Assembly (NCBI RefSeq): GCF_009914755.1
Contig: NC_060947.1
From: the human T2T-CHM13v2.0 reference genome, Homo sapiens
DNA: 64,000 nt
Strand: one strand, 5' to 3'
Shown in pieces: positions 46,474 through 50,769 of this stretch. The notes beneath the pieces are model-generated. The model saw nothing but the letters and a program-made list of their open reading frames with translations. It had not been told where the DNA came from and searched no databases. The translations under genes and the position numbers were made by a program. The first letter of the stretch is position 1. Each line of letters opens with the position of its first letter.

Positions 46474-47278
46474 ATGAACAAACTAATACATGCAACCACT
46501 TGGATGGATCCCAAAGGCATAATACTGAGTGAAAAAAAAAAAGGAAACCTCAAAACGTCATATACTGTAGGATTACTTTTGCATAACATTCTTTTTTAAA
46601 AAAATTATATTCAGGGGGTACATGTGCATGCTTGCTAAGGGTACATGGTGTGAAGCTGATGTTTGGGCTTCTAATGATCCCATCACTCATATAGTGAAAA
46701 TAGTACCCGGTAGAAAGTGTTTTAGCCTCTCCCCTCCTCATTCAATCCCTTCCCCCTTTTGGAATACCTAGTGCCTATTGTTTCCATCATTATGTCCAGG
46801 TGTGCCCAATGTTTACCTCCCACTTTGAAGTGAGAATATTTAATATTTGGTATTCTCTTTATGCAATAATTCACTTAGAATGATGGCCTGCACCTACATC
46901 CATGTTGCTGCAAAGGATATAACTTCATTCCTTTTTATGGCTGCACAGTATTCCATGGTGTATAGGTACCACATTTACTTTATCCAATATGGCATTGAGA
47001 AACACCTAGGTTGATTCCATAGTTTTGCTACTGCAAACTGTGCTGTAATAAACATAAGAGTGCAGGTATCTTTTAATGTTTTCCTTTCAATATACACACA
47101 GTAATAGGATTGCTGGGTCAGATGGTGGTTCTATTTTTCAATCTTTGATAAATCTTCAAACTGCTTTCCACAGTGGCTGAATTAATTTATGTTTCCAAAA
47201 ACAGTGTAAAAGTCTTCTATTTTCTCTGCAGCCTCATAAGCATCTGTCATGCTTTGACTTTTTAATAATAGTCATTCG

Positions 47279-50200
47279 ATGACTACTGGGTACATAACGA
47301 AATGAAGGCAGAAATAAAGATGTTCTTTGAAACCAACGAGAACAAAGACACCACATACCAGAATCTCTGGGACGCACTCAAAGCAGTGTGTAGAGGGAAA
47401 TTTATAGCACTAAATGCCTACAAGAGAAAGCAGGAAAGATCCAAAATTGACACCCTAACATCACAATTAAAAGAACTAGAAAAGCAAGAGCAAACACATT
47501 CAAAAGCTAGCAGAAGGCAAGAAATAACTAAAATCAGAGCAGAACTGAAGGAAATAGAGACACAAAAAACCCTTCAAAAAATCAATGAATCCAGGAGCTG
47601 GTTTTTTGAAAGGATCAACAAAATTGATAGACCGCTAGCAAGACTAATAAAGAAAAAAAGAGAGAAGAATCAAATAGACACAATAAAAAATGATAAAGGG
47701 GATATCACCACCGATCCCACAGAAATACAAACTACCATCAGAGAATACTACAAACACCTCTATGCAAATAAACTAGAAAATCTAGAAGAAATGGATACAT
47801 TCCTCGACACATACACTCTCCCAAGACTAAACCAGGAAGAAGTTGAATCTCTGAATCGACCAATAACAGGCTCTGAAATTGTGGCAATAATCAATAGTTT
47901 ACCAACCAAAAAGAGTCCAGGACCAGATGGATTCACAGCCGAATTCTACCAGAGGTACAAGGAGGAACTGGTACCATTCCTTCTGAAACTATTCCAATCA
48001 ATAGAAAAAGAGGGAATCCTCCCTAACTCATTTTATGAGGCCAGCATCACACTGATACCAAAGCCGGGCAGAGACACAACCAAAAAAGAGAATTTTAGAC
48101 CAATATCCTTGATGAACATTGATGCAAAAATCCTCAATAAAATACTGGCAAACCGAATCCAGCAGCACATCAAAAAGCTTATCCACCATGATCAAGTGGG
48201 CTTCATCCCTGGGATGCAAGGCTGGTTCAATATACGCAAATCAATAAATGTAATCCAGCATATAAACAGAGCCAAAGACAAAAACCACATGATTATCTCA
48301 ATAGATGCAGAAAAAGCCTTTGACAAAATTCAACAACCCTTCATGCTAAAAACTCTCAATAAATTAGGTATTGATGGGACGTATTTCAAAATAATAAGAG
48401 CTATCTATGACAAACCCACAGCCAATATCATACTGAATGGGCAAAAACTGGAAGCATTCCCTTTGAAAACCGGCACAAGACAGGGATGCCCTCTCTCACC
48501 GCTCCTATTCAACATAGTGTTGGAAGTTCTGGCCAGGGCAATCAGGCAGGAGAAGGAAATAAAGGGTATTCAATTAGGAAAAGAGGAAGTCAAATTGTCC
48601 CTGTTTGCAGACGACATGATTGTTTATCTAGAAAACCCCATCGTCTCAGCCCAAAATCTCCTTAAGCTGATAAGCAACTTCAGCAAAGTCTCAGGATACA
48701 AAATCAATGTACAAAAATCACAAGCATTCTTATACACCAACAACAGACAAACAGAGAGCCAAATCATGGGTGAACTCCCATTCACAATTGCTTCAAAGAG
48801 AATAAAATACCTAGGAATCCAACTTACAAGGGATGTGAAGGACCTCTTCAAGGAGAACTACAAACCACTGCTCAAGGAAATAAAAGAGGAGACAAACAAA
48901 TGGAAGAACATTCCATGCTCATGGGTAGGAAGAATCAATATCGTGAAAATGGCCATACTGCCCAAGGTAATTTACAGATTCAATGCCATCCCCATCAAGC
49001 TACCAATGACTTTCTTCACAGAATTGGAAAAAACTACTTTAAAGTTCATATGGAACCAAAAAAGAGCCCGCATTGCCAAGTCAATCCTAAGCCAAAAGAA
49101 CAAAGCTGGAGGCATCACACTACCTGACTTCAAACTATACTACAAGGCTACAGTAACCAAAACAGCATGGTACTGGTACCAAAACAGAGATATAGATCAA
49201 TGGAACAGAACAGAGCCCTCAGAAATAATGCCGCATATCTACAACTATCTGATCTTTGACAAACCTGAGAAAAACAAGCAATGGGGAAAGGATTCCCTAT
49301 TTAATAAATGGTGCTGGGAAAACTGGCTAGCCATATGTAGAAAGCTGAAACTGGATCCCTTCCTTACACCTTATACAAAAATCAATTCAAGATGGATTAA
49401 AGATTTAAACGTTAAACCTAAAACCATAAAAACCCTAGAAGAAAACCTAGGCATTACCATTCAGGACATAGGCGTGGGCAAGGACTTCATGTCCAAAACA
49501 CCAAAAGCAATGGCAACAAAAGACAAAATTGACAAATGGGATCTAATTAAACTAAAGAGCTTCTGCACAGCAAAAGAAACTACCATCAGAGTGAACAGGC
49601 AACCTACAACATGGGAGAAAATTTTTGCAACCTACTCATCTGACAAAGGGCTAATATCCAGAATCTACAATGAACTCAAACAAATTTACAAGAAAAAAAC
49701 AAACAACCCCATCAAAAAGTGGGCGAAGGACATGAACAGACACTTCTCAAAAGAAGACATTTATGCAGCCAAAAAACACATGAAGAAATGCTCATCATCA
49801 CTGGCCATCAGAGAAATGCAAATCAAAACCACTATGAGATATCATCTCACACCAGTTAGAATGGCAATCATTAAAAAGTCAGGAAACAACAGGTGCTGGA
49901 GAGGATGCGGAGAAATAGGAACACTTTTACACTGTTGGTGGGACTGTAAACTAGTTCAACCATTGTGGAAGTCAGTGTGGCGATTCCTCAGGGATCTAGA
50001 ACTAGAAATACCATTTGACCCAGCCATCCCATTACTGGGTATATACCCAAATGAGTATAAATCATGCTGCTATAAAGACACATGCACACGTATGTTTATT
50101 GCGGCACTATTCACAATAGCAAAGACTTGGAACCAACCCAAATGCCCAACAATGATAGACTGGATTAAGAAAATGTGGCACATATACACCATGGAATACT

Positions 50201-50565
50201 ATGCAGCCATAAAAAATGATGAGTTCATATCCTTTGTAGGGACATGGATGAAATTGGAAACCATCATTCTCAGTAAACTATCGCAAGAACAAAAAACCAA
50301 ACACCGCATATTCTCACTCATAGGTGGGAATTGAACAATGAGATCACATGGACACAGGAAGGGGAATATCACACTCTGGGGACTGTGGTGGGGTCGGGGG
50401 AGGGGGGAGGGATAGCATTGGGAGATATACCTAATGCTAGATGACACATTAGTGGGTGCAGTGCACCAGCATGGCACATGTATACATATGTAACTAACCT
50501 GCACAATGTGCACATGTACCCTAAAACTTAGAGTATAATAAAAAAAAAAAAAAAAAAAAAAAAAA
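47279..50565 (+). mobile_element. L1HS Ta-1, 5'-truncated (~3.26 kb plus A26)
   Basis: Ta diagnostics ACA at 50446-50448 and G at 50531; Ta-1 diagnostics T50052 and G50055 (cccaaaTgaGtat); uninterrupted ORF2; TSD AATAATAGTCATTCGA at 47264-47279 and 50679-50694. Confidence 0.97.
47302..50334 (+). CDS. LINE-1 ORF2p residues ~266-1275 (RT and C-terminal CCHC region intact, no endonuclease); open frame, expression not shown
   Basis: 1010 aa with no stop: [20 protein letters not shown] (48604-48615), YLGI, CWRGC...HCWWDC, ends FSLIGGN. Confidence 0.8.
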
Positions 50566-50680
50566 GAATTGTAAAAAAAAAAAATTATAAATAAAACAAA
50601 GAAGAATATGTGAGAGGAGCTGAATGTGCCCCATAAAGCCTAAAAAAAAAAAAAAAAAAAAAAAAAAAAAAAAAAAAAAA
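50566..50680 (+). other. L1 3' transduction with a second poly(A) tail
   Basis: GAATTGT-A12-TTATAAATAAAACAAAGAAGAATATGTGAGAGGAGCTGAATGTGCCCCATAAAGCCT-A39 lies between the L1 poly(A) and the 3' TSD copy. Confidence 0.93.
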
Positions 50681-50769
50681 TAATAGTCATTCGACTAGTG
50701 TGAGATGGTATCTTATTGTGGTTTTGATTTGCATTTCTCTAATGATAAGTGATATTGAGCTTTTTAAAA

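What the first reader, a model, noticed from the sequence alone, without database searches (positions are those of the whole stretch)
47264..50694. Very recent L1HS-Ta1 insertion, likely polymorphic
Seen: all Ta and Ta-1 diagnostics, an unbroken ORF2, pure A26 and A39 tracts, a perfect 16-bp TSD (last A shared with the L1 5' end), and an endonuclease-type target TT/AATA inside an antisense L1PA16. Known: Ta-1 is the currently active human lineage and many copies are dimorphic. Inference: this may be a non-reference or low-frequency allele, hard to call with short reads because both flanks are L1.
Basis: partly seen in the sequence, partly recalled or inferred. Interest (0 to 1): 0.7.

Follow-up and report, generated by a model that had tools for sequence, protein, structure and literature searches.

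The report
Truncated L1 tagged by chr11 source
A shortened copy of the youngest human L1 jumping gene on the X chromosome lacks the parts needed to jump again, carries a 76-base tag matching the DNA beside a published source element on chromosome 11, and is likely present in only some people: an ordinary new member of a known family.

Summary
The element is real: a 3,260-nt, 5'-truncated L1HS Ta-1 copy with an exact 16-nt target-site duplication inside an old antisense L1. It keeps ORF2 residues 259-1275 only: no promoter, ORF1 or endonuclease. This copy is not among its 14 listed members. Internal variants argue against the chr1p31.1 daughter as donor and link it to two untagged full-length copies on chr5 and chr7, so the donor was likely a chr11 allele other than CHM13's. 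Dimorphism at this site was not shown: no readable table covered it. It is likely, since 7 of 9 relatives looked up, the progenitor included, are dimorphic. 'Very recent' and 'low frequency' are untested. Verdict: new member of a known family, modest interest.

The parts
47264..47279 (+). left target-site duplication, 16 nt; last A shared with the L1 5' end (1-nt microhomology)
   Evidence: exact match to 50679-50694; donor sequence upstream of the junction differs
47279..50539 (+). 5'-truncated L1HS Ta-1 body, L1 positions 2757-6016 of the chr11 full-length copy, no inversion or indel
   Evidence: 99.8% to the chr11 copy over 3,260 nt; ungapped against four full-length relatives
47281..50334 (+). 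open remnant of ORF2, residues 259-1275: reverse transcriptase and C-terminal part, no endonuclease
   Evidence: stop-free frame; Pfam RVT_1 E 5e-48 and no Exo_endo_phos hit, which the control ORF2 start at 42414 does give
47763..47763 (+). T at L1 position 3241 (CpG transition), shared with untagged full-length copies on chr5 and chr7
   Evidence: variant table; chance estimate 0.0065; the same change recurs at 75 sites genome-wide
48050..48051 (+). private C at L1 position 3528 (ORF2 I515T) next to the lineage-marking A at 3529
   Evidence: 1 of 9 genome-wide matches has the C
50052..50055 (+). Ta-1 diagnostic T..G
   Evidence: definition in PMC12350158 section 53
50444..50446 (+). Ta diagnostic ACA
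   Evidence: definition
50540..50565 (+). A26: copy of the source element's own genomic A tract (A30 at chr11), not this copy's tail
   Evidence: same tract and junction at the chr11 locus
50566..50641 (+). 76-nt 3' transduction of the chr11:95.449 Mb flank (75 nt at the source; one extra A in the internal run)
   Evidence: 99% match at C11:95449444, where it runs on into native flank with no poly(A)
50642..50680 (+). A39: this insertion's poly(A) tail; the last 2 As belong to the TSD and the first 4 could be templated by the source flank
50679..50694 (+). right target-site duplication, 16 nt
46596..47279 (-). host, left part: old antisense L1 (3' end and end of ORF2)
   Evidence: 46793-47277 aligns to L1 5832->5337 at 72.7%; T-rich 3' end near 46596 read directly
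50679..50764 (-). host, right part: same old antisense L1, continuing in register
   Evidence: aligns to L1 5350->5264 at 81.6%; the overlap with the left part is the TSD
50781..56023 (-). second, older antisense L1 that interrupts the host 86 nt right of the insertion
   Evidence: 84.2% to the chr11 copy over 5.3 kb

Best explanation
This is a 5'-truncated L1HS Ta-1 insertion that carries 76 nt of the DNA flanking the full-length L1 at chr11:95.44 Mb, likely made when a transcript of that element read past its own poly(A) signal and was reverse-transcribed into an old antisense L1 on chrX, and likely still present in only some human X chromosomes. Shown: the anatomy, the TSD, the source of the tag, the loss of promoter, ORF1 and endonuclease, and the variant pattern. 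Inferred from established L1 biology: read-through, cleavage at tag position 75-79, nicking of the bottom strand at 5'-TATT/AA-3', target-primed reverse transcription that stopped at L1 position 2757 and joined through one base of microhomology, and that the copy cannot move itself. Inferred from variants: the donor was an allele (or earlier state) of the chr11 element with T at position 3241 and without the five changes at 3445-3551 that CHM13's chr11 allele has; the same donor state likely gave the untagged full-length copies on chr5 and chr7.
For: Tag found at 8 places in the genome by two searches; in 7 it is followed by a new poly(A), in 1 (chr11) by native flank. The chr11 element has the TSD and the Q159H, D523H and C581A-type changes given for the lineage progenitor in PMC6425141. 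The chrX body differs from the commonest state of 7 relatives at 2 positions and has the lineage marker A3529, found at only 9 sites genome-wide. It lacks all 4 changes that the chr1p31.1a daughter has in the shared span, and its chr5 and chr7 sisters lack that daughter's 5 upstream changes. Of 14 tag-bearing rows in the held part of PMC12350158 Table 18, only chr1p31.1a has the long tag end, so few known intermediates could pass on 75 nt. Dimorphism: 7 of 9 relatives looked up are deletion rows against CHM13, the progenitor at 6,056 bp.
Against: CHM13's chr11 allele is not the closest sequence: 7 differences, against 2 for the untagged chr5 copy and 5-7 for the other full-length tagged members. 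The donor allele itself was not seen. The tag ends at the same base as in chr1p31.1a, as a granddaughter's would. T3241 is a CpG change that recurs (75 sites), and two other CpG sites (3979, 5581) show all four combinations among relatives, so homoplasy exists. The poly(A) signal for the 75-nt end is unclear: AATAAA lies 46 nt upstream, CATAAA 4-8 nt upstream. No table readable here shows an empty allele at this site.
Confidence: 0.68

Rival explanations
1. Same lineage, but a granddaughter: the direct donor is a tagged full-length daughter of chr11 that CHM13 does not carry, with at least 75 nt of tag and T3241.
For: PMC6425141 lists full-length members that CHM13 lacks and shows daughters acting as donors; a nested row on chr19 appears in PMC12350158 Table 18; CHM13's chr11 allele lacks T3241.
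Against: Only 1 of 14 tag-bearing rows in the held part of Table 18 reaches the long end; chr11 is known to have alleles, which explains the mismatch without a new element. The held table is cut and omits most of chrX, so this is weak.
Confidence: 0.19
2. Granddaughter through chr1p31.1a (C1:83.89 Mb): the transcript ended in that element's own second A tract, which is why the tags end at the same base.
For: Identical tag end at position 75; chr1p31.1a has intact ORFs and did make a tagged daughter on chr14p.
Against: chrX lacks its T2776, T4369, A5581 and G5720; A5581 is also in three other members, so it likely predates that insertion; the chr5 and chr7 sisters lack its five 5' changes.
Confidence: 0.1
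3. The insertion is real and of this lineage but fixed or nearly fixed in humans, and was simply overlooked in the 2019 list (a rival to the dimorphism claim only).
For: No table readable here shows an empty allele; the nominal sequence age allows more than a million years.
Against: Its source still segregates as presence/absence, as do 7 of 9 relatives looked up; it has one of the longest tags and should have been found by the hg19 alignment described if hg19 held it.
Confidence: 0.07
4. The insertion is private to the CHM13 cell line (arisen in culture or in the founding sperm) or an assembly artefact.
For: Not found in any text or table searched; long pure A tracts.
Against: Clean TSD and in-register host rule out misassembly; a new insertion should match a donor in the same haploid genome, and none of the 3 full-length tagged relatives in euchromatin or the centromeric one matches (5-7 differences); the private C3528 has no second copy.
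Confidence: 0.03

Closest known systems
L1 transduction family of the chr11 lineage progenitor (hg19 chr11:95169381; Salvador-Palomeque et al. 2019, PMC6425141; section 7 read in full)
   Same: Same source locus, same progenitor TSD at the start of the tag, same tag; five listed members recovered in CHM13 with the listed TSDs.
   Different: This chrX:75.6 Mb copy is not among the 14 members (their only X member is at p11.4); it has T3241 and C3528; its tag runs to the long end shared only with chr1p31.1a.
L1HS Ta-1 subfamily
   Same: ACA, T..G and the 3' UTR G are present; 99.8% to full-length Ta-1 copies.
   Different: 5'-truncated, so the 5' sites that split Ta-1 further (recalled: Ta-1d versus Ta-1nd) cannot be read in this copy.
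Ref_Chr1_p31.1_a (C1:83.89 Mb)
   Same: Same 75-nt tag end.
   Different: Full-length, with a 5' transduction; 6 differences in the shared 3.26 kb.
Untagged full-length Ta-1 copies at C5:40.29 Mb and C7:49.84 Mb
   Same: Share A3529 and T3241; the chr5 copy differs at 2 of 3,262 columns; both are deletion rows in PMC12350158 Table 18.
   Different: No chr11 tag, so neither can be the donor; not in the 2019 list; the chr5 copy has an ORF1 stop after residue 88.

Membership tests
L1HS Ta | ACA triplet in the 3' UTR | tested here: met
   ACA at 50444-50446; 4 of 4 older window copies differ; definition
L1HS Ta-1 | T and G three bases apart near L1 5535/5538 | tested here: met
   T50052, G50055; the distance to ACA is 392 here against 394 in the paper's numbering, but the motifs align unambiguously
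L1HS Ta-1 subgroups (Ta-1d/nd, recalled) | diagnostic sites in the 5' UTR and ORF1 | not testable with these tools
   the copy begins at L1 position 2757
endonuclease-dependent L1 insertion | target-site duplication, poly(A) tail, T-rich/A nick site | tested here: met
   16-nt TSD, A39; bottom-strand TATT/AA, one base off the TTTT/A form named in PMC12016303
chr11-progenitor transduction family (PMC6425141) | 3' transduced flank of the chr11 progenitor | tested here: met
   75 of 75 source bases plus one extra A
chr11-progenitor transduction family (PMC6425141) | internal variants shared with the progenitor alleles relative to L1.3 | tested here: inconclusive
   the paper's variant list is in a figure that is not held and L1.3 was not available; the copy is within 2 changes of the relatives' commonest state and has marker A3529, which CHM13's chr11 allele lacks
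retrotransposition-competent L1 | 5' UTR promoter, intact ORF1 and full ORF2 | tested here: not met
   first 2,756 nt missing; no endonuclease domain
dimorphic (presence/absence) L1 insertion | an empty allele in other human chromosomes | not testable with these tools
   only one human genome is held; tables read did not cover non-PAR chrX, were headers only, or failed positive controls
host element L1PA16 | best match to the L1PA16 consensus | not testable with these tools
   no repeat library; old antisense L1 at 73-82% to L1HS is shown

The most novel reading that the evidence does not exclude
The chrX copy, with the untagged full-length copies on chr5 and chr7, marks an undescribed T3241 branch of the chr11 lineage whose donor (an unsampled progenitor allele or an unknown tagged full-length element) has not been sequenced. 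The family is far larger than the 14 published members because its A-rich tag is read as poly(A): 13 of 14 tag-bearing rows in the held part of a 1,019-genome table are labelled 'solo'. It also reaches satellite DNA, with an intact full-length member in chr1 alpha satellite and a two-step transduction on chr14p.
Probability: 0.35. Interest if true: 0.5.

Novelty: new member of a known kind. Interest (0 to 1): 0.3.

Why it matters
The copy itself is inert cargo in a gene-free, L1-rich stretch; no effect on a gene is evident. Its value is as a lineage marker: the tag ties a stretch without promoter or ORF1 to a named, assayed source element, and its variants tie two untagged full-length elements to the same lineage. 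If the undercount holds, activity estimates for the chr11 source from transduction counts are too low, because automated callers fold its A-rich tag into the poly(A) tail.

Tried and rejected
Direct test of the empty allele: no second human or ape genome is held. Full-text search for the TSD and tag motifs: 0 papers. Supplements: PMC6425141, 0 hits with no positive control included; PMC12350158 Table 18, chrX rows returned for the prefixes tried are all below 1 Mb, the file is cut and Tables 19-20 are not held; PMC12350169 Tables 32 and 35 gave header rows only and both positive controls failed; PMC8647825 and PMC12016303, 0 hits with positive controls also 0; PMC9311842 not readable. All are uninformative, not negative. 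GRCh38/hg19 prefixes in those searches came from a recalled offset (about 77.19 Mb and 76.41 Mb) and may be wrong. A coordinate and accession search returned unrelated lncRNA papers because the accession was a wrong guess. Dating by divergence was too wide to use. Two of the four extra A3529 matches (C8:119.9 Mb, C23:73.67 Mb) were dropped as old copies at 95-97%. The first variant table missed chr1p31.1a through an anchor mismatch and was redone. Rejected: A26 and A39 as one interrupted tail; chr5 or chr7 copies as donor (no tag); CHM13's chr11 allele as exact donor (7 differences).

Full report
Observation. The window holds at 47279-50539 an L1 stretch that is 99.8% identical to a full-length L1HS over 3,260 nt and starts at L1 position 2757. 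An exact 16-nt duplication frames it at 47264-47279 and 50679-50694; chance would give about 1e-5 such pairs. The last A of the left copy is also the first L1 base. The Ta triplet ACA (50444-50446) and the Ta-1 pair T50052/G50055 are present and differ from 4 of 4 older L1 3' ends of the window (definitions from PMC12350158 section 53; the G at 50531 as a Ta mark is recalled). The ORF2 frame is open from residue 259 to 1275; Pfam finds the reverse transcriptase and no endonuclease, while a control ORF2 start in the window gives the endonuclease hit. Promoter and ORF1 are absent, so the copy cannot move itself (inference from established L1 biology). The two flanks align in register to one old antisense L1, overlapping by the duplication; the subfamily name L1PA16 could not be tested.

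Between A26 and A39 lie 76 nt that are not L1 (50566-50641). A DNA search and a pattern search of the whole genome each returned the same 8 places. At 7 of 8 the stretch is followed by a new poly(A); at 1 of 8, C11:95,449,444, it runs on into ordinary flank behind a full-length L1HS with intact ORFs. That element is the source. Its TSD and its changes Q159H, D523H and the A near position 581 match the 'lineage progenitor' (hg19 chr11:95169381, allele 1) of the transduction family in PMC6425141 (I read its outline, section 7 in full and passages; figures are not held). Five of the 8 places are members in that paper's Table 3, by their TSDs (chr11, chr3, chr9, two on chr1p31.1). Three are not: this chrX copy, a full-length copy in chr1 alpha satellite and a short nested copy on chr14p. 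So A26 is the copied genomic tail of the source and A39 is the new tail.

Which donor. The tag ends at source position 75, as in chr1p31.1a and its chr14p daughter; the other four end at 41-51. A granddaughter route through chr1p31.1a is therefore a real rival. The variant table argues against it: chrX lacks that element's T2776, T4369, A5581 and G5720. CHM13's chr11 allele is no exact donor either: 7 differences, 5 of them a cluster at 3445-3551 found in no other member. A search for the A at position 3529 gave 9 sites: 5 tagged members, 2 old copies at 95-97% that I dropped, and 2 young untagged full-length copies at C5:40.29 Mb and C7:49.84 Mb. Both share T3241 with chrX, and the chr5 copy differs from chrX at only 2 of 3,262 columns. 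T3241 is a CpG change that recurs at 75 sites in the genome, but the chance that at least 2 of the 6 other copies hit this site independently is about 0.0065. The simplest reading is a donor with the tag and T3241: an allele or earlier state of chr11, which is known to have alleles. A tagged full-length daughter absent from CHM13 is the main rival. Against a clean tree, positions 3979 and 5581 show all four combinations among relatives.

Mechanism. Shown: anatomy, source of the tag, variants. Inferred: read-through past the L1's AATAAA (50537-50542) and the genomic A tract, cleavage at tag position 75-79 ahead of a U-rich stretch seen at the source, a nick at bottom-strand TATT/AA, reverse transcription for about 3.4 kb, and joining at one base of microhomology. 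The hexamer used for the long end is unclear: AATAAA is at tag position 24 and CATAAA at 66.

Polymorphism and age. I could not test the empty allele: one human genome is held. Indirect support: PMC6425141 aligned the tag to the reference genome and lists five reference members without this one; and in PMC12350158 Supplementary Table 18, 7 of 9 relatives that I looked up are deletion rows against CHM13 (chr11 at 6,056 bp, chr3, both chr1p31.1 copies, chr9, chr5, chr7), the 2 without rows being the satellite-embedded copies. The chrX rows returned from that table all lie below 1 Mb, so its silence on this site means nothing. HGSVC3 (PMC12350169) Tables 32 and 35 gave headers only; searches of the supplements of PMC8647825 and PMC12016303 failed their positive controls; that of PMC6425141 gave 0 hits without a control; PMC9311842's was unreadable. 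I put dimorphism at about 0.9. Frequency is unknown. Two departures in 3,260 nt give a nominal 1.1-1.3 million years with a 95% range of 0.13-4.8 under recalled rates, an overestimate because at least one was likely inherited from the donor; 'very recent' rests on the pure A tracts and the segregating source. Short-read calling should be fair at the 5' junction (best scored non-self match 85%) and poorer at the 3' one (93-94% at many sites over 87 nt); both searches scored only 40 candidates of 2,545 and 4,546.

Against print. Nine full-text searches did not show this copy; the motif search gave 0 papers. Also seen in passages only: PMC13192797, PMC8219666 (centromeric full-length L1s of CHM13 are already catalogued), PMC5668948, PMC10415145 (nested transduction is known), PMC12016303, PMC9311842, PMC12350169; PMC11871128 as a search listing only. 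One side result stands out: of 14 rows in the held, cut part of Table 18 that contain the tag, 13 are labelled 'solo' with the tag inside the poly(A) column, and 12 are insertions absent from CHM13.

Verdict. New member of a known kind; interest 0.3.

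Noticed in passing
L015 (G000:C1:126,641,705-126,647,812, +): Full-length tagged family member inside chr1 alpha satellite, ORF1 338 aa and ORF2 1275 aa, 14-nt TSD, 41-nt tag; not in the 2019 list and no row in the held Table 18. Centromeric full-length L1s of CHM13 are catalogued in PMC8219666 Table S8, not read.
   Followed up: partly
L011 (G000:C14:6,284,368-6,285,179, +): Two-step transduction on chr14p: about 133 nt of L1, A31, the 75-nt chr11 tag, A30, about 510 nt of the chr1p31.1a flank and A32, 100% identical to chr1p31.1a over 785 nt, inserted in the 3' end of an older L1 next to alpha satellite, with at most a 2-3 nt duplication. Shows chr1p31.1a acted as a source.
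   Followed up: partly
L024 (C5:40,291,540-40,297,552, -) and L025 (C7:49,841,314-49,847,331, -): Untagged full-length Ta-1 copies sharing A3529 and T3241 with the chrX copy; chr5 has an ORF1 stop after residue 88, chr7 has both ORFs intact and a cluster of five changes at 4547-4597; both are deletion rows in PMC12350158 Table 18.
   Followed up: yes
L009, L1 positions 3445-3551: CHM13's chr11 progenitor allele has five changes within 107 nt (V489A, L493Q, D523H, two silent) found in no relative, including loss of the lineage marker A3529; looks like a conversion tract (inference).
   Followed up: no
PMC12350158 Table 18, row chr19:49,347,285: A 6,154-bp insertion whose tail holds the chr11 tag, an A tract, a 14-mer one base off the TSD listed for Non-ref_Chr3_p12.2_a, and another A tract: likely a granddaughter through that element.
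   Followed up: no
window 49824-50333 and 50991-51500: The new copy's 3' end faces the 3' end of an older antisense L1: 510-nt arms, 92% complementary, 657 nt apart, a long inverted repeat that exists only on the filled allele.
   Followed up: no
window 40335-46465 (+): Older near-full-length L1 (92.7% to L1HS) with about 125 extra nt in its 5' UTR at 41109-41233; recalled as the segment with a ZNF93 site that later L1PA lineages lost. A 717-nt ORF2 fragment (39616-40332) abuts its 5' end and no TSD over 7 nt was found.
   Followed up: partly
whole window: 33 aligned L1 pieces of many ages; + strand up to 46.5 kb, almost all - strand after 50.7 kb, with nesting; NCBI's mask covers 48%, and old pieces such as 46793-47249 are unmasked.
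   Followed up: no
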